Shown here: one piece after another, positions 1-5,949 of the stretch | Layout of the letters: each line of letters starts with the position of its first letter | Position numbering within the stretch: the stretch's first letter is position 1 | The notes under the pieces: model-generated | Seen by the model: only the letters and a program-made list of their open reading frames with translations | What the model was told of the DNA's origin: nothing | The model's database searches: none | Made by a program: the position numbers and the translations under genes | Virus record (IMG/VR): IMGVR_UViG_3300028969_000052 | Length of the DNA stretch: 5,949 bases | Origin: a virus | Lineage: Duplodnaviria; Heunggongvirae; Uroviricota; Caudoviricetes | Direction: 5' to 3' (one strand)

Positions 1-173
1 CGCTTGCCATGCCCGAACATTTCAATCCAGCGATATTCTGCCTGGGTGTGTTCACGCGCAATGAAGAACGTACAACCGGCTATCGCCCCGTAAACCCAGT
101 TTCCGGTAAAAAGACCAATCAGTACCTGCGCAGCCACAGCACAAAGCGCATGAAGAAAAGGTGTTATATCCAT
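1..173 (-). CDS. Small hydrophobic (probably membrane) protein, 5' part only; ORF runs off the window start. Translation from ATG at 173-171: MDITPFLHALCAVAAQVLIGLFTGNWVYGAIAGCTFFIAREHTQAEYRWIEMFGHGKR...
   Basis: Seen in sequence: ATG at 173-171 preceded by a strong Shine-Dalgarno AGGAGG (plus 176-181, 4-nt spacer), only 10 nt after the stop of the upstream 234-aa gene; open frame with no stop to position 1. Absent from the ORF track, probably because it is short and has no in-window stop. The hydrophobic stretch suggests a transmembrane helix. Function unknown. Confidence 0.45.
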   Translation of the reverse strand, partial: MDITPFLHALCAVAAQVLIGLFTGNWVYGAIAGCTFFIAREHTQAEYRWIEMFGHGK

Positions 174-183
174 TACTCCTCCT

Positions 184-888
184 TTATCTAATATCGCTTC
201 GGGAAGTTAATAACAACTTTAATTCTGACTCAAGTTCATCAACTCTTTCAGTCAGTTTCTGGATATGGTGAATCAGTGGAACAACCAGACGTTCGTACAT
301 TACACCTTCGGCAACAAGGCCATTGCTGGAAATAGCTTCAGGAGCATCATCTTCGTTAGCTGGTCGCCAGTGTACAAACTGAGGAGCAATTTCTCCTACT
401 TCCTCGGCAATCAATCCGTAGAATCCCCAGTCACGCCTGTCATTTTCGCATTGCGACCTGTACCACACAGGGCGCATCCTGAAAATGAGATCGGCGTGCT
501 CTGAATCTATTGTCTCTACTGAATGTTTATAGCGGATAGACGATGTTGACCGCAGTACAGACGAAATTGCAGGGTCAGGATTAAGATAAAGGTTTGCCGC
601 CGCTGTAGTCGTGGCCAAATTCCATAAATAAAACGCTTCACGACCTGTCAGTGGATAAAAATCTCCGCCATAACGACCACTTTCCAGATCGTTCACTTCC
701 ACTTTGTTTTTCAGCTTATTATCAACTTCAGTTTTTGTGTATCTGGAGCTGATATCCTGCTTTGCACTGGTCATATCAGTCTGAAGCGTTGATACTTTAC
801 TGTTAATTGAGGAAATATCTTCCTTCGCTTTACTGACATCTCCCTTCAGCGTGGTGATGTCTCCCGGAATTACTGTCGATGTAGCCAT
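184..888 (-). CDS. Tail-fibre-like protein (234 aa): N-terminal ~115 aa of coiled-coil/fibre-like sequence plus a C-terminal intramolecular chaperone auto-processing domain (Peptidase_S74 / endosialidase-chaperone type)
   Basis: ORF track 184..888. SD-like GAGGGAG 5-6 nt upstream of the ATG at 888-886. The C-terminal half (SSIRYKHSVETIDSEHADLIFRMRPVWYRSQ...GFYGLIAEEVGEIAPQFV...GVMYERLVVPLIHHIQKLTERVDELESEL) follows the conserved pattern I recall for the C-terminal intramolecular chaperone domain of endosialidase and phage tail fibres. Domain assignment is from memory, not a search. Confidence 0.7.
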   Translation of the reverse strand: MATSTVIPGDITTLKGDVSKAKEDISSINSKVSTLQTDMTSAKQDISSRYTKTEVDNKLKNKVEVNDLESGRYGGDFYPLTGREAFYLWNLATTTAAANLYLNPDPAISSVLRSTSSIRYKHSVETIDSEHADLIFRMRPVWYRSQCENDRRDWGFYGLIAEEVGEIAPQFVHWRPANEDDAPEAISSNGLVAEGVMYERLVVPLIHHIQKLTERVDELESELKLLLTSRSDIR

Positions 889-897
889 TTGTCTCCC

Positions 898-1179
898 TCA
901 CATCCAGCCACGAAGTTGATGTTCAACAACAACCGCGTATTCATCGAATATTGACGATTTTTTTGCATCATTAATGATGCGCACGTTTACAAAATATCCG
1001 TCTTCCTTAACACATACCGGTTCGCCATCTTCAGTCAGTTCTCCGGTTTCTTTGTACACGTTACCTATCACGTCAATAAGAATATCATCCTGCATCGACT
1101 CGTCATCATAATAGCCAGCACTCTTCATAAAGGCCGAAAAGTCGGCCTTGTCTGTGAATTTGATAATTAAATCTCGCAT
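898..1179 (-). CDS. Hypothetical acidic 93-aa protein, translationally coupled to the side tail fibre gene; possibly a fibre-specific chaperone or assembly factor (speculative)
   Basis: ORF track 898..1179. Its ATG (1179-1177) overlaps the stf stop codon (1181-1179) by one nucleotide (TAATG on the minus strand). Acidic composition, no recognisable similarity to lambda Tfa. AT-rich like the distal part of stf. Confidence 0.55.
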   Translation of the reverse strand: MRDLIIKFTDKADFSAFMKSAGYYDDESMQDDILIDVIGNVYKETGELTEDGEPVCVKEDGYFVNVRIINDAKKSSIFDEYAVVVEHQLRGWM

Positions 1180-3563
1180 TATATTATCTCTCCCATTTGC
1201 GCATCGGTTAATTCTTTATGCCATATTCTAAAATTCCTGATATAACCAAATAAATGACGTAAGCCGGCTGTAGTCTGGCCTCCAATCCTTATACCTGTAG
1301 CACCACTAACACTCTTCCACGTTGTTGATGCTGGTGTTGATAAAACCCCATTGCAGCCAGCCTGAAACTTGCCATCGCTTTTTATTCTATATACAGCGAT
1401 AATCTTTCTTGGGTAATTTCCAGGTGGAAATGATATTTGATTACCAAATTGAACATATGGAGTTCCTACACTACCTGCTGTATTTCTGAATGCAAAAACA
1501 AAAGCGTCGTCTTTTGTTTTAAATCCTGTTATATCATAAATTCTAGGCGCGGAATTTGGTGCTATAGACCAATTTTTATTCACTTCAACCATGCAGGTTA
1601 AAGGTTTGCTGGTCATGTTATTTTTACAAGGCAATGTAACAATATCGCTTGCTCGCGTTGATGCAACTGTATCGGAAATGATAAAAGATGATGCGCATGA
1701 GCCGCCTTCAAATTGTGGTGTCGTAACATCCAAATATTCCCCGCCCAAATAAGTTCCAGGTGAAACAGGTGGAGCAATTTGGATCTGAGAGCCAACCATA
1801 TTATCAATAGCTTCAGATTGATATGTAACCTCGAAATAAATCCATCCATTAGATTCTTTCTCCGCTCGGGCGGTTATTCTTGCAGCCCCTCCTCCCGTTT
1901 TTCTAATGGACATATCTGTTATATTAGGATATGCATCTGCCAGATAAAAATATGCGGACCCGTCATATCTTTCAAATCTTATACGACATTGTATATTAGC
2001 ACTATCGCTTTTTACACGACATGATGTTGTAACATACTTTTCAGTTCCAGTAACATCGACACCTCTTCCTCCTGAAACCGCAGCGATATTCATTGTCGTA
2101 TTTGTCCCAATTTTTTCGTCCTTTATTTGAAACCGCCCATAAGTAAAGCCAAACTCATCAACACCACTTTCTGTTATAGTTACACTTGTTGTAGCTCCCC
2201 ACTTAGATGGCGTAAGTGAATTAAGATGATAGTTGGTTCTTTGTCCTTCAATCAGCAAACCTTCTCGTTCAAATCGCGGTTCGTCAACTTCAGCAACGGT
2301 TAATACTCCTGATTTATTAATGTATGTTGCACCTGATGCGCGTTTGAAGCTAACAACCTTATCGGATGGCATTTTAATAACATCATCACCTACAGTTATT
2401 TGCTTATAACCAGGCGAAAAGCCAGCAAGCATATCCAGTGAATCGTTAAACGGTATCCACACATCGGGAAGCGGCTGCAAAACTTGTTTATACGGCTCCG
2501 CAGCCTGGCTTGCATACTCTCTGGCTGCGTCTTCACTTGCTTTTGCAGCCGTCTGGCTTGCAGCGGATGCTTTCGCCGAGTTAGCCGCCGCAGTCTCGCT
2601 CGCCTTTGCGTTGGTTTCACTGGTTTTTGCAGCTTTTTGACTGTTGGCTGATGCAGTGGCAGAAGAAGCCGCCGCACTTGCAGAACCAGCTGCGGCACTC
2701 TCGCTTTGGGCCGCTGCATCCTGACTGTTTTTCGCCGCAGTTTCGCTGGCTTTGGCATTCGTTTCGCTGGTCTTCGCTGCCGTCTGGCTGGACTTTGCGT
2801 TGGTTTCGCTCGTCTTCGCTGCTTTCTGGCTGTTAGCTGCAGCAGTTGCTGATCCAGCTGCTGAAGTCGCAGAACCGGCTGCAGCACTCTCGCTTTCGGC
2901 TGCTGCAGCCTGACTGCTTTTCGCCGCAGTTTCACTGGTTTTGGCATTCGTTTCGCTTGTTTTCGCTGCCGTCTGGCTGGACTTTGCGTTGGTTTCGCTC
3001 GTCTTTGCTGCTGTCTCGCTATTTTTCGCGTTGTTTTCTGATTTTTTAGCTGCTGTCGCGGAGTTTGCCGATGCAGTCTGCGAGGCCGCTGCCGCCTGTG
3101 CGCTGTTAGCTGCATTCGTTTCTGAGGTTTTCGCNNNNNNNNNNNNNNNNNNNNNNNCCGCTGCTGTTTCTGATTTCTTTGCTGCCGCTGCGCTCTGAGA
3201 GGCGGCTTCAGCGTTGTGTGCCGCTTCTTCCACCATTGCCTCAAAACGACGCAATGCCTCCGGCATGACATCATCTTCCGTCATGGCACCGAGAAAATCA
3301 TTCAGCGTACCTGGTCTGGAACCTTCATAGACGGTAATGGTTCCGGCATGTGAAGGCGGAAAACCTTCAACCAGCAGGATAACGCTATACTGGCCATACT
3401 CAACGTCCATGCTGTAACGCCCGGCTTCATCCGGATTTTCAGAGGCCACCGTGTTCACCAGTACAGTGGTGCTGTTACGCTTTGCCTTCAGTTGAATAGT
3501 GCAGTTCTGTATTGGTTTTCCCGCACCATCTTTCAGCACACCTGAGATTTTTACTGCTGCCAT
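1179..3563 (-). CDS. stf: Side tail fibre protein (lambda Stf-like N-terminus, repetitive Ala-rich shaft, distal domain ending in a probable ConA/LamG-like lectin fold); contains a 23-nt N-run
   Basis: ORF track 1179..3569 opens at a GTG that overlaps the SD. The likely true start is the ATG at 3563-3561 (GGAG, 5-nt spacer, ATG), giving MAAVKISGVLKDGAGKPIQNCTIQLKAKRNSTTV..., which matches the lambda Stf N-terminus as I recall it. The frame stays coherent across the N-run 3135-3157. The C-terminal motif GLRHLFGYIRNFRIWHKELTDAQMGEI resembles the end of LamG-type lectin domains (from memory). Confidence 0.85.
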   Translation of the reverse strand: MAAVKISGVLKDGAGKPIQNCTIQLKAKRNSTTVLVNTVASENPDEAGRYSMDVEYGQYSVILLVEGFPPSHAGTITVYEGSRPGTLNDFLGAMTEDDVMPEALRRFEAMVEEAAHNAEAASQSAAAAKKSETAAXXXXXXXXAKTSETNAANSAQAAAASQTASANSATAAKKSENNAKNSETAAKTSETNAKSSQTAAKTSETNAKTSETAAKSSQAAAAESESAAAGSATSAAGSATAAANSQKAAKTSETNAKSSQTAAKTSETNAKASETAAKNSQDAAAQSESAAAGSASAAASSATASANSQKAAKTSETNAKASETAAANSAKASAASQTAAKASEDAAREYASQAAEPYKQVLQPLPDVWIPFNDSLDMLAGFSPGYKQITVGDDVIKMPSDKVVSFKRASGATYINKSGVLTVAEVDEPRFEREGLLIEGQRTNYHLNSLTPSKWGATTSVTITESGVDEFGFTYGRFQIKDEKIGTNTTMNIAAVSGGRGVDVTGTEKYVTTSCRVKSDSANIQCRIRFERYDGSAYFYLADAYPNITDMSIRKTGGGAARITARAEKESNGWIYFEVTYQSEAIDNMVGSQIQIAPPVSPGTYLGGEYLDVTTPQFEGGSCASSFIISDTVASTRASDIVTLPCKNNMTSKPLTCMVEVNKNWSIAPNSAPRIYDITGFKTKDDAFVFAFRNTAGSVGTPYVQFGNQISFPPGNYPRKIIAVYRIKSDGKFQAGCNGVLSTPASTTWKSVSGATGIRIGGQTTAGLRHLFGYIRNFRIWHKELTDAQMGEII
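2637..3014. repeat. Two near-identical tandem direct repeats of ~189 bp (63 codons) inside the stf shaft, with nested ~42-bp (AKTSETNAKSSQTA-type) sub-repeats; the degenerate Ala/Ser/Thr/Lys repeat region extends over ~2500-3230
   Basis: Seen directly: the stretch ~2696-2820 is almost identical to ~2886-3010. The protein shows AKTSETNAKSSQTAAKTSETNAKTSETAAKSSQAAAAESESAAAGSATSAAGSATAAANSQKA followed by a near copy. Confidence 0.8.
3135..3157. other. Run of 23 N (assembly gap or masked bases) inside stf
   Basis: Literal N characters. The reading frame and the repeat pattern of stf are continuous on both sides. Confidence 0.95.
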
Positions 3564-3574
3564 ATCCACTCCAC

Positions 3575-3600
3575 AAAAAAGCCCGCCTGAACCGGCGGGC
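3575..3600 (-). terminator. Rho-independent terminator downstream of lom, directly abutting the stf ribosome-binding site
   Basis: Minus-strand RNA: GCCCGCC-GGUUCA-GGCGGGC followed by UUUUUU (perfect 7-bp GC stem, 6-nt loop, U6). The U-tract ends 2 nt before the stf SD. Confidence 0.7.
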
Positions 3601-3623
3601 TGTCATAACACTGTGTTACCTGG

Positions 3624-4217
3624 CTAATCAGAATTTATAACCGACANNNNNNNNNNNNNNNNNNNNNNNNNNNNNNNNNNNNNNNNNNNNNNNNNNNNNN
3701 NNNNNNNNNNNNNNNNNNNNAACTGCACGCCAGCCCCCCACGCCAGAGACGTGTTGCTGTGGCGACCGTCATCACTTCCGGTCAGCACATCGTGCGTATC
3801 CCCCTTGTTGTCGGTCACCTGAAGATAATCCCCGGAAAAAGTCGACACACGGCTGTAAGCCACACCCGCGATCGCATACGCGCTGAACCATTCATTCACG
3901 CGCACAGACGGCCCCGCCATCACGCTGAACCAGCGGTTACGCACTGAATCTTCATGCCAGCGGGTATCGCTGTAATGCGTTTTTTGCTCATCTTTGGCAT
4001 TGGCATAACTGAATGACGTCACCAGCCCCAGCGTGTCCGTAAATTCATAACGGTATTTCACGTTAATGCCCTTCAGGTCATCACTGCCTGGCATATCAGT
4101 ATGGGTCTGAAGATACCCGGCGCTTAGTGTGGACTGATGCTCTGCTGCGCTCGCTGGCGTACCAGCGGCAACCAGCCAGACTACTGCGGACAGAATAACA
4201 GCACATAATTTACGCAT
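3624..4217 (-). CDS. lom: Lom/Ail-family outer-membrane beta-barrel protein (lambda Lom homologue); interrupted by a 73-nt N-run near the 3' end
   Basis: ORF track 3624..4217. N-terminus MRKLCAVILSAV...AAGTPASA is signal-peptide-like, and EHQSTLSAGYL...GINVKYRYEFTDTLGLVTSFSY...WGAGVQ matches lambda Lom as I recall it. SD GAGAGG 6-7 nt upstream of the ATG at 4217. After the N-run the track frame ends ...SVINSD, but the adjacent frame ends ...VGYKF-stop, the typical aromatic C-terminus of this family, so the 3' coordinate is uncertain by a few nt. Confidence 0.85.
   Translation of the reverse strand: MRKLCAVILSAVVWLVAAGTPASAAEHQSTLSAGYLQTHTDMPGSDDLKGINVKYRYEFTDTLGLVTSFSYANAKDEQKTHYSDTRWHEDSVRNRWFSVMAGPSVRVNEWFSAYAIAGVAYSRVSTFSGDYLQVTDNKGDTHDVLTGSDDGRHSNTSLAWGAGVQXXXXXXXXXXXXXXXXXXXXXXXXXXSVINSD
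3648..3720. other. Run of ~73 N (assembly gap or masked bases) inside the lom 3' region
   Basis: Literal N characters. The frame relationship across the gap is not preserved relative to the expected Lom C-terminus. Confidence 0.95.
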
Positions 4218-4241
4218 AATTACCTCTCGCTTTTCTGCAAT

Positions 4242-4265
4242 AAAAAAGGCGTCATTTCTGGCGCC
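4242..4265 (-). terminator. Possible weak intrinsic terminator between J and lom
   Basis: Minus-strand RNA: GGCGCCA-GAAA-UGACGCC (7-bp stem with one C/A mismatch, GAAA loop) followed by UUUUUU. The imperfect stem lowers confidence. Confidence 0.35.
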
Positions 4266-4284
4266 CGTATCTGGGTTATAAAAT

Positions 4285-5949
4285 TCAGCTAATCGTGATG
4301 CCTGCAGTGGCTTTCTTCATCACCACAACCAGCAAATCGCTGATACTTGCTGTGGGATACCAGCCATTTACCAGCCATGCCGATACAGAAAATTCCAGTG
4401 TCATGACACCACTGCCTGCAGGCATATCAATAACACCCGTATATATCAGCGTATTATCCAGAGCCGTTCGGTTATAAATTTCAGCACCGTTTTTTCGTAC
4501 TATCAGACGGCATGAGGAGTAGATATCAGTATGATCTTGCTCATGTTTAGCGCCACTGAATGCCACCGCCGGGATAACAATTTGCCGGTCAAACGGCTGA
4601 TCGTCATAAACCCTGACGGTAATGGTTCCTGATGGCCACCGCTCCGGTGCACGGGAGTCCCGGGGGAAAGCTTTGCCCACTGTTTTAACGAGATCACCTT
4701 CAATCTGGTTGGCGGACAGTTTTCCCAGAACCCGACAGTTCTCGTTAATCGTGACGTTGTTGAGCGTCCCGGAGTTCGCATTCACGTTACCGCTGATATC
4801 GGCATTTTTCGCCGTCAGCCGCCCGTCCGGTGTCAGGGAAAATGCCGGAGGATTACCGCCGCTGGTAATGGTGGGAGCCGTCAGATATTTCAGGAACACT
4901 TCATTCATGTATATCTGATCGCCCTGCCCAACAAACATCGGCTTTGTGTTGCCATTCGCAGGATTAATCATCGCAATCCTGTCTGCCGCCAGCAGCACCT
5001 GACTCTGCATGCCGTCAGGGGTGTTTTCAATACCGGCACCAATACCCGCGATATAAAGGCGTCCGTCCTGCATCTGCTGCAGCTTCACAGCCCACATGCT
5101 GTTCAGGTTATTATTTGTATCAACCTGAACCTTCTGTATCTGCTGGATCGCTGCACTCTGGTCTTCCAGTTTCTTATTGACGGTCTGCGTGATTTCATTA
5201 CTGACATCCGTGATGGACGTTCTGATTTCCGCCAGGTCAGGCGCAAGCTGACCGTTATCAATCTGCGTCCACAACTCCTGAGCCAGATGGGTTTTCCCTA
5301 TCTCTCCTTTGAAAAAATCCAGATAGCCGGATGCATCATCACTCGGCTGGCCAACAGCCTCCACGAATGCCGATTTGCCAACGGTGTTCACACTGCGGAT
5401 GTAAAAATAATAATCATGGCCCGGCTTGATATTGATACTGGCAGCTATCCAGTACAGCGCCGTGCCAAGATAGCGGGCTGTGGTTTCAACCTGCCTGATA
5501 TCCGCAATCCGCTTTTCCGAGAACCAGAACTCAAACTGTACCGTCGGATCATAAACCGCAAGATGCGGCGTGGCGGTGATCTGAAAATAGCCCGGAGTCA
5601 GCTCAATCCGCGACGGCGCTGACGGTGCGGCAATCCGGAACGATACCGACGCCGGATCGCCCTGCTGCCCCCACGCATTTACTGCCCGGACTGTCAGCGT
5701 GTAACGCCCCAGCGCCAGTTGCCTGAAGCGGTATGTGGTTTCCGTCGTCCGGGCTGTGCTGACAAGCCGCTCACTGCCGTCATCCGCTGCCACGGTCAGG
5801 CGAAGCATAAAGCTCACCCCCTTCACCACCTTCGGCGTGTCCCATCGCGCCAGTACCTGATATTCCCCGCTGTCTGCGGTGACTTCGGCAGTCAGGTGCT
5901 GCACTGCTGGCGGCGTGACACCATTCACCGTGCCGCTCTGGTCACCGTC
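4285..5949 (-). CDS. J: Host-specificity protein J (central tail fibre / tip attachment protein), C-terminal ~555 codons; the 5' end lies beyond the window
   Basis: The ORF is open to the window edge. The M at 5928 in the track is an internal GTG and upstream codons read DGDQSGT without a stop. [33 protein letters not shown]...[22 protein letters not shown]...[21 protein letters not shown]...[20 protein letters not shown] matches lambda J as I recall it; the last ~150 aa diverge. Confidence 0.9.

What the first reader, a model, noticed from the sequence alone, without database searches (positions are those of the whole stretch)
1179..3563. Mosaic side tail fibre with a sharp GC discontinuity and a probable lectin-fold receptor-binding tip
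The anchor and Ala-rich shaft (~2500-3563) are GC-rich (about 55% in sampled 60-nt stretches), while the distal ~440 codons (1179-~2500) and the downstream 93-aa gene are AT-rich (about 30% in a sampled stretch near 1200-1260). That points to a horizontally acquired distal module fused to a conserved lambda-type anchor. The C-terminus resembles a ConA/LamG-like lectin domain rather than the lambda or T4 gp37-type tip, which suggests a carbohydrate receptor (LPS or capsule) and independence from a lambda-type Tfa chaperone.
Basis: partly seen in the sequence, partly recalled or inferred. Interest (0 to 1): 0.6.

Follow-up and report, generated by a model that had tools for sequence, protein, structure and literature searches.

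The report
Mosaic lambdoid side tail fibre

Summary
Within stf (1179-3563, minus strand) G+C drops from 54% to 39% at about nt 2451. Third-codon-position G+C drops from 0.48 to 0.25, so the Ala-rich shaft does not explain the drop. The protein has a lambda-type anchor (PF08400), an Ala-rich repeat shaft and a distal module of two ConA/LamG-like jelly rolls. The first jelly roll is homologous to the capsule-binding head spike fibre of the Rhodobacter gene transfer agent. Three points need correcting. (1) The unit that is exchanged is aa ~452-761 (nt 1287-2216). It sits between conserved AT-rich flanks, so the G+C break is not the recombination joint. Part of the module is 87% identical in DNA to the virulent T5-like phage IrisVonRoten. 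(2) The module is probably not the terminal tip. In every group sampled except rV5-like phages it is followed by a translationally coupled ~90-aa protein (ORF93) and a second fibre protein (ORF234 here) that has a conserved N-terminal peptide and a self-cleaving S74 chaperone. (3) No Tfa is present, but the module has these partners of its own. The family is already catalogued (phrog_1419, NF048003) and occurs in E. coli B, BL21 and C. It is a new member of a known kind and of modest interest.

The parts
3168..3563 (-). Stf N-terminal anchor (lambda-type 'prophage tail fibre N-terminal' domain, aa 5-134 in the numbering that starts at GTG 3569)
   Evidence: Pfam PF08400 E = 3e-66, 222 bits against a cut-off of 26.6. 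The alignment profile matches the lambda Stf N-terminus solved in 9e7m, E = 1e-13. G+C 51%, GC3 0.47.
2475..3167 (-). Ala/Ser/Thr-rich repeat shaft (aa 135-365), containing a 189-nt tandem repeat (2586-3020, 2.3 copies) with 21- and 42-nt sub-repeats
   Evidence: Translation; Tandem Repeats Finder; G+C 56% with GC2 0.68 and GC3 0.48. Homology to other phages breaks off at 2667, 2982 and 3211.
2217..2474 (-). Conserved AT-rich junction (aa 366-451, 'LQPLPDVWIPFNDSLDM...DEPRFEREGLLIEGQRTN'). The G+C change point (nt ~2451) lies at its upstream edge.
   Evidence: 86-93% nt identity to most of the 80 lambdoid loci and 87% to IrisVonRoten. Column conservation 0.83-0.98. It recurs on its own in many other fibres. 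Change point.
1287..2216 (-). Hypervariable exchanged cassette (aa ~452-761): the core of two tandem ConA-like jelly-roll domains. These are a GTA-head-spike-fibre-like domain (aa 439-640, nt 1650-2255) and most of a LamG-like C-terminal domain (aa ~645-796).
1179..1286 (-). Conserved C-terminal 35 codons of Stf plus the stop codon, which overlaps the ORF93 start (TAATG)
   Evidence: Part of the conserved left flank 1-1286 at 89-97% nt identity. Column conservation 0.85-0.92. Sequence.
898..1179 (-). ORF93: a small acidic alpha/beta protein that always follows this distal module. It is a candidate dedicated chaperone or adaptor and is not a Tfa.
184..888 (-). ORF234: a short second fibre protein. 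It has a conserved N-terminal peptide (MATSTVIPGDITTLK), a coiled-coil stretch, a short beta region and a C-terminal S74 intramolecular chaperone that begins at the invariant Ser116.
   Evidence: Pfam PF13884 scores 27.4 bits against a cut-off of 22, residues 116-172. It starts 9 nt after ORF93 in every locus, as either a 234-aa or a 346-aa allele. The N-terminal peptide and S116/K121 are invariant against IrisVonRoten gp24 and JenP1 gp25. The virulent phage swan01 carries a 224-aa homologue.
3580..3601 (-). Terminator-like hairpin followed by a T run, between lom and stf
   Evidence: The only terminator-like site in 1-4300; shuffled sequence gives a mean of 4.4.

Best explanation
The gene encodes an intact, mosaic side tail fibre of a lambdoid E. 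coli prophage.

Shown:
- A lambda-type N-terminal domain is joined to an Ala-rich repeat shaft and then to an AT-rich distal module of two tandem ConA/LamG-like jelly rolls.
- The first jelly roll is homologous to the capsule-binding head spike fibre of RcGTA.
- The core of that module (aa ~452-761) is a cassette exchanged among lambdoid prophages and across phage families. Part of it is 87% identical in DNA to the virulent T5-like phage IrisVonRoten.
- The conserved flanks of the cassette, the translationally coupled ORF93 and a second fibre protein (ORF234) form a fixed gene module.

Inferred:
- The shaft trimerises by itself as a helical bundle.
- Each chain then ends in globular lectin-like domains that fold without a Tfa-type trimerisation chaperone.
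- These variable domains bind a variable surface polysaccharide (O-antigen, LPS or capsule) for reversible first contact.
- The conserved junction and C-terminal tail, perhaps through ORF93, hold the N-terminal peptide of ORF234. The fibre is therefore two-part: a lectin-like node carrying a short terminal fibre that matures by self-cleavage of its S74 chaperone.
- J then makes the irreversible contact.

For: Exchange: the composition break; variable cassette 1287-2216 between conserved flanks in 80 loci; 87% nt identity to IrisVonRoten over 1532-2477 and 76% protein identity over the whole module. The same module sits on lambda-type, P2-type, T5-type, Drexlerviridae, Queuovirinae and rV5-type N-terminal parts. 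Local G+C of the donor-type phages is 39-42%.

Gene module: ORF93 directly follows in 181 phage records, against 215 that hold the module. The third gene, with its conserved N-terminal peptide and S74 domain, is present in lambdoid phages, JenP1, IrisVonRoten, AKFV33 and swan01.

Published support: the RcGTA head spike fibre binds capsule (PMC10218006). IrisVonRoten gp24 is an O16-targeting receptor-binding protein mounted on a long proximal fibre (PMC11990801). Branched fibres exist in which the N-terminus of a second protein docks on the first (PMC4728585).
Confidence: 0.6

Rival explanations
1. The distal module is purely a structural node. It binds no receptor and only carries the terminal fibre (the third gene product), which holds all the specificity, as proposed for IrisVonRoten gp24.
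Against: Among lambdoid loci the module core is the most variable segment (39-57% identity), while ORF93 (86-99%) and ORF234 (94-99%; only two alleles) hardly vary. That is the opposite of what a passive scaffold carrying a specificity-determining tip should show. Mature ORF234 would be only about 116 aa. The module is homologous to a capsule-binding GTA fibre (PMC10218006). rV5-like phages have the module without an adjacent third fibre gene.
Confidence: 0.2
2. The distal module is the sole and terminal receptor-binding tip. ORF93 and ORF234 are unrelated downstream genes or leftovers of a replaced fibre.
For: ORF234 aligns with the C-terminal 237 residues of a 1385-aa fibre family, phrog_3299. 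A truncated tfa and a pin invertase lie further downstream in related genomes, which shows past rearrangement.
Against: ORF234 has its own ribosome-binding site (GGGAG) and a fixed 9-nt spacing in every locus. Its N-terminal peptide starts several independent protein families (phrog_4563, phrog_19752). Intact homologues are kept in virulent phages with compact genomes (swan01, JenP1, AKFV33, IrisVonRoten).
Confidence: 0.12
3. The composition step is an effect of amino-acid content or codon usage within a vertically inherited gene, not a sign of horizontal exchange.
For: The shaft's very high G+C is partly caused by Ala and Ser codons (GC2 0.68).
Against: GC3 halves (0.48 to 0.25) and no permutation reaches the observed statistic. 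Alleles differ by up to 60% between otherwise near-identical prophages. There is 87% nt identity to a T5-like virulent phage.
Confidence: 0.02

Closest known systems
Bacteriophage lambda (Ur-lambda) side tail fibre Stf with its chaperone Tfa
   Same: The N-terminal anchor domain (PF08400; it matches the solved lambda Stf N-terminus in 9e7m), the Ala-rich shaft, and the position after J and lom.
   Different: The distal 430 residues are unrelated to lambda's tip. No Tfa (Caudo_TAP) homologue follows; a 93-aa orphan protein and a short fibre with an S74 chaperone follow instead.
Lateral tail fibre locus of T5-like phage IrisVonRoten (Bas32): bas32_0022, 0023 and 0024
   Same: The distal module is 76% identical in protein and 87% in DNA over 946 nt. 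Both have the same three-gene order, the same N-terminal peptide on the third protein and the same S74 chaperone.
   Different: The N-terminal anchor is T5-type. The small protein is only 40% identical. The third protein is 574 aa with two receptor-binding domains that target O16 O-antigen (PMC11990801), whereas here it is a minimal 234 aa.
RcGTA head spike fibre Rcc01080 (Rhodobacter capsulatus gene transfer agent; PDB 6tb9, 6tsu)
   Same: Sequence-profile homology of the first jelly-roll domain (NF048003 at 50.7 bits; profile E = 3.6e-9). Rcc01080 binds capsular polysaccharide (PMC10218006).
   Different: Rcc01080 is a 325-aa monomer anchored by its N-terminus to a head spike. Here the domain sits at the end of a long trimeric tail fibre and is followed by a second LamG-like domain.
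Branched lateral tail fibres LtfA/LtfB of T5-like phages DT57C and DT571/2, and phiEco32 gp14/gp15
   Same: The concept is the same: a second fibre protein docks by a short conserved N-terminal segment on the first fibre, and it carries an S74 chaperone (PMC4728585, PMC10713586).
   Different: LtfA has its own S74 chaperone and no LamG-like terminal module. No small protein lying between the two fibre genes is described there. No sequence relation was tested here.
Pseudomonas phage Pa193 baseplate wedge protein gp46 (PDB 9b45)
   Different: It is a baseplate triplex subunit of a myovirus, not part of a fibre. The relation is at the level of fold only.

Membership tests
Lambda-type side tail fibre (Stf) family | N-terminal 'prophage tail fibre N-terminal' domain (PF08400) that anchors the fibre to the tail tip | tested here: met
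   E = 3e-66, 222 bits against a cut-off of 26.6, residues 5-134. The profile matches solved lambda Stf residues 1-93.
Lambda-type side tail fibre (Stf) family | Gene position directly after J and lom in a lambdoid late operon | tested here: met
   The J C-terminus (4285-5928) and Lom (3624-4217) lie upstream on the same strand.
Lambda-type side tail fibre (Stf) family | Lambda-type distal tip followed by a Tfa (Caudo_TAP) assembly chaperone | tested here: not met
   The distal 430 aa hit no lambda-, P2- or T4-type tip family. ORF93 and ORF234 have no Tfa match in Pfam, NCBIfam or PHROGs.
ConA-like lectin/glucanase superfamily (LamG, Pfam Laminin_G_3) | Sequence match above the Pfam gathering score | tested here: not met
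   23.9-25.2 bits against a cut-off of 27.6, residues 721-791. The same weak match is seen in 24 of 53 homologues.
ConA-like lectin/glucanase superfamily (LamG, Pfam Laminin_G_3) | Jelly-roll beta-sandwich fold of the LamG, CBM or pentraxin type | tested here: met
ConA-like lectin/glucanase superfamily (LamG, Pfam Laminin_G_3) | Carbohydrate (or Ca2+-dependent ligand) binding | not testable with these tools
   Needs glycan-array or adsorption experiments.
Phage/GTA head spike fibre domain (NCBIfam NF048003) | Score above the curated cut-off, with homology to RcGTA Rcc01080 | tested here: met
   50.7 bits against 36, residues 439-640 covering model positions 1-181 of 182. The profile matches 6tb9_F3 at E = 3.6e-9.
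PHROG 1419 (tail protein) | End-to-end match to the family profile | tested here: met
   1306.8 bits, residues 4-796 against profile positions 1-793 of 793.
Fibre proteins with a C-terminal intramolecular chaperone (Peptidase_S74) - applies to ORF234 | S74 domain above the cut-off, with the conserved Ser at the cleavage site | tested here: met
   27.4 bits against 22, residues 116-172. S116 and K121 are invariant against two homologues that score 47-48 bits. Cleavage itself was not tested.
Branched or two-part lateral tail fibres (LtfA/LtfB type) | Physical attachment of the second fibre protein to the first through its N-terminal segment | not testable with these tools
   Only gene order and a conserved N-terminal peptide are shown. 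This needs virion proteomics, cryo-EM or multimer modelling.

The most novel reading that the evidence does not exclude
The conserved flanks of the Stf distal module, together with ORF93, form a standard socket shared by at least four phage groups (lambdoid, Drexlerviridae, Queuovirinae, T5-like). Interchangeable terminal fibres that begin with the plug peptide M-x-T-x-T-x-IP-x-DI-x-x-LK are mounted on it. ORF93 would then be a new class of fibre adaptor or chaperone unrelated to Tfa. The fibre would carry two independently exchangeable specificity elements: the lectin cassette and the terminal fibre.
Probability: 0.35. Interest if true: 0.55.

Novelty: new member of a known kind. Interest (0 to 1): 0.3.

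Why it matters
Tail-fibre mosaicism is textbook, so the main claim adds little. Three things are of practical use.

First, the analysis maps exactly which 310 residues are exchanged and which flanks stay fixed. That gives natural splice points for engineering lambda-type fibres.

Second, it documents recent DNA exchange between a temperate lambdoid prophage and a virulent T5-like phage.

Third, it points to an uncharacterised and very widespread small protein (ORF93, phrog_1361) that is locked to this module. It also points to a possible plug-and-socket connection to a second fibre.

The same allele sits in the Qin-site prophage of E. coli B, BL21, REL606 and C, so the experiments would be easy to set up.

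Tried and rejected
- Searching the PDB with the distal sequence alone found nothing. Only a profile reached Rcc01080.
- Literature searches for this domain type in T5-like or lambdoid fibres found no direct study. The lambda-P2 STF chimera paper is not about this module.
- I considered that ORF234 is a leftover of a replaced long fibre, because it aligns with the C-terminus of phrog_3299. I rejected this because it has its own start, fixed spacing and intact homologues in virulent phages.
- I considered that the G+C break marks the recombination joint and rejected it.
- I considered DT57C LtfA/LtfB as the same system. It is only an analogue, since LtfA has its own S74 domain and no small gene between the two fibre genes is described.
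- I did not scan for the plug peptide alone, because it is too short for a meaningful tblastn search.
Full report
**What is in the window**

All genes lie on the minus strand. In order they are: the C-terminal 547 residues of the tail tip protein J (4285-5928), Lom (3624-4217), the side tail fibre Stf (1179-3563/3569), a 93-aa ORF (898-1179), a 234-aa ORF (184-888), and the start of a 97-aa protein of unknown function (1-173). Pfam and PHROGs confirm J, Lom and Stf. The window is 99% identical over nt 1-3646 (95% over lom and J) to a prophage at the Qin site (ydfJ ... pinQ) of E. coli EcPF14. The distal module with ORF93 (query nt 880-2480) is 99.3-99.5% identical in that strain and in E. coli B, REL606, BL21(DE3) and C. 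In BL21(DE3) the gene is cut by an IS3 element.

**Checking the observation**

G+C is 39.1% for 1179-2400, 55.8% for the shaft and 51.2% for the anchor, and the sampled stretch 1200-1260 is 31.1%. The maximum-likelihood change point is nt 2451. GC3 falls from 0.48 to 0.25 at about codon 386. The likelihood-ratio statistic is 45, and none of 1000 codon permutations exceeds 19.7. The shaft's extra G+C over the anchor comes from second codon positions (Ala and Ser). The fall in GC3 is independent of amino-acid content.

**Architecture of the protein**

- Residues 5-134 are the lambda-type anchor (PF08400, E = 3e-66). A profile also matches the solved lambda Stf N-terminus (9e7m).
- Residues 135-365 are an Ala/Ser/Thr-rich shaft with a 189-nt tandem repeat and 21/42-nt sub-repeats.
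- Residues 366-796 are the AT-rich distal module.

NCBIfam places residues 439-640 in the 'phage head spike fibre' domain (NF048003, 50.7 bits against a cut-off of 36). A profile of 53 homologues matches the RcGTA head spike fibre Rcc01080 at E = 3.6e-9. Pfam Laminin_G_3 matches residues 721-791 just below its cut-off, and does the same in 24 of 53 homologues.

**Where the mosaic joints really are**

I collected 80 related viral contigs through ORF93 and compared them with the window. The conserved flanks are nt 1-1286 (ORF234, ORF93 and the last 35 codons of stf; 89-97% identity) and nt ~2218/2229/2245 upward (stf aa 1-450; 84-97%). Between them, nt ~1287-2216 (aa ~452-761) has no nucleotide match in most loci, and alleles are only 39-57% identical in protein. 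Column conservation over 55 distinct alleles is 0.83-0.98 for aa 351-450, 0.5-0.75 for aa 451-760, and 0.85-0.92 for aa 761-796.

The exchanged unit is thus the core of the two jelly rolls. The G+C break lies about 230 nt upstream of it, at the start of a conserved AT-rich junction. ORF93 and ORF234 are AT-rich too, but they belong to the conserved backbone and not to this particular cassette.

**Evidence for exchange across phage families**

The T5-like virulent phage IrisVonRoten shares 87% nucleotide identity with window 1532-2477 and 76% protein identity over the whole module. Its small protein, however, is only 40% identical to ORF93. The module is found at the C-terminus of fibres with lambda-type, P2-type, T5-type, Drexlerviridae, Queuovirinae and rV5-type N-terminal parts. 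There are 1326 clusters at 50% identity with E <= 1e-3 and 215 phage records. The fibre loci of IrisVonRoten and JenP1 have 39-42% G+C. The low G+C therefore fits a module pool that circulates among AT-rich virulent coliphages.

Nine to twelve nucleotides further on, a third gene always follows in lambdoid phages (234- or 346-aa alleles), JenP1 (351 aa), IrisVonRoten (574 aa), AKFV33 (557 aa) and swan01 (224 aa). Its product begins with M-x-T-x-T-x-IP-x-DI-x-x-LK and ends in a Peptidase_S74 intramolecular chaperone with an invariant Ser (S116 here). rV5-like FFH2 is an exception: it has the module and a 110-aa ORF93 homologue but no adjacent third fibre gene.

The BASEL follow-up paper describes IrisVonRoten gp24 as a T-shaped receptor-binding protein that targets O16 and connects to a long proximal fibre (PMC11990801). 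Branched fibres whose second protein docks by its N-terminus are established genetically for DT57C (PMC4728585).

**Best explanation**

The fibre is two-part. The helical shaft ends in lectin-like jelly rolls that are the hypervariable, exchangeable element. By homology to the capsule-binding RcGTA fibre (PMC10218006), by their CBM-like fold and by their variability, these domains most likely bind a variable surface polysaccharide. The conserved flanks, perhaps with ORF93, hold the N-terminal peptide of a short terminal fibre (ORF234) that matures by self-cleavage.

The architecture, the exchange and the gene linkage are shown. Glycan binding, docking and the role of ORF93 are inferred.

The main rival is that the module is only a scaffold and all specificity lies in the third protein. 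That fits the Pa193 gp46 match and the Bas32 model. It does not fit the fact that the module core varies most while ORF93 and ORF234 hardly vary.

**Novelty**

The family is catalogued (phrog_1419, NF048003) and annotated by NCBI as 'prophage tail fiber N-terminal domain-containing' or 'phage head spike fiber domain-containing' protein. This exact allele occurs in about 77 complete E. coli genomes, and parts of the region match in 1751 of 5426. Tail-fibre mosaicism is long established. This is a new member of a known kind. The modest interest lies in the precisely mapped cassette, the exchange between temperate and virulent phages, and the uncharacterised ORF93 with its possible plug-and-socket role.

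Noticed in passing
window 898-1179 (-): ORF93 (phrog_1361) is an uncharacterised ~90-aa acidic protein that is translationally coupled to the fibre gene. It is found directly after this distal module in 181 phage records from five or more phage groups. Its predicted alpha/beta fold has no informative structural neighbour.
   Followed up: yes
window 184-888 (-): ORF234 is a minimal fibre protein: a conserved N-terminal peptide, a coiled coil, and an S74 self-cleaving chaperone starting at Ser116, which would leave a mature part of only about 116 aa. Lambdoid prophages carry either this allele or a 346-aa allele. The virulent Drexlerviridae phage swan01 has a 224-aa homologue.
   Followed up: yes
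window 1-173 (-): This is the start (good RBS, ATG at 173) of a 97-aa protein of unknown function (phrog_1443, no Pfam family) that runs off the left end of the window. Its sequence looks hydrophobic, like a membrane protein. The 60-aa ORF listed on the plus strand at 9-191 is probably spurious.
   Followed up: partly
window 3580-3601 (-): A strong terminator-like hairpin (8 pairs, 7 of them G-C, then TTTTTTG) lies between the lom stop and the stf start. It is the only such site in 1-4300. stf and its partners may therefore depend on read-through or antitermination.
   Followed up: no
window 4285-5267 (-), J C-terminal region: J is also mosaic among the related loci. Many of them lose nucleotide similarity at about 4324-4663 (within the Ig_GpJ_C receptor-binding domain) and at about 5099-5267, while the flanks stay at 90% or more. 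This looks like a second exchangeable specificity cassette in the same window.
   Followed up: no
window 3135-3157 and 3647-3720: These are runs of N (masked sequence) inside stf and lom. Relatives L001 and L006 read through the stf run in frame. They have 6 codons where the window has about 8, which indicates a small in-frame length difference in the shaft.
   Followed up: partly
L001 4183-4981; L002 8262-9424: In related genomes a pin-type invertase and a truncated tfa pseudogene lie a few hundred bases beyond the window's left end. They appear to be remnants of an older invertible stf/tfa arrangement at the Qin site. In BL21(DE3) an IS3 element cuts the stf shaft, and in strain TUM10008 an IS1 element interrupts the region.
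   Followed up: no
phage collection hits: Records labelled Campylobacter phage and Listeria phage carry this E. coli-type fibre module within rV5-like or T5-like sized genomes or short fragments. They are probably mislabelled hosts or contaminating coliphage sequence.
   Followed up: no
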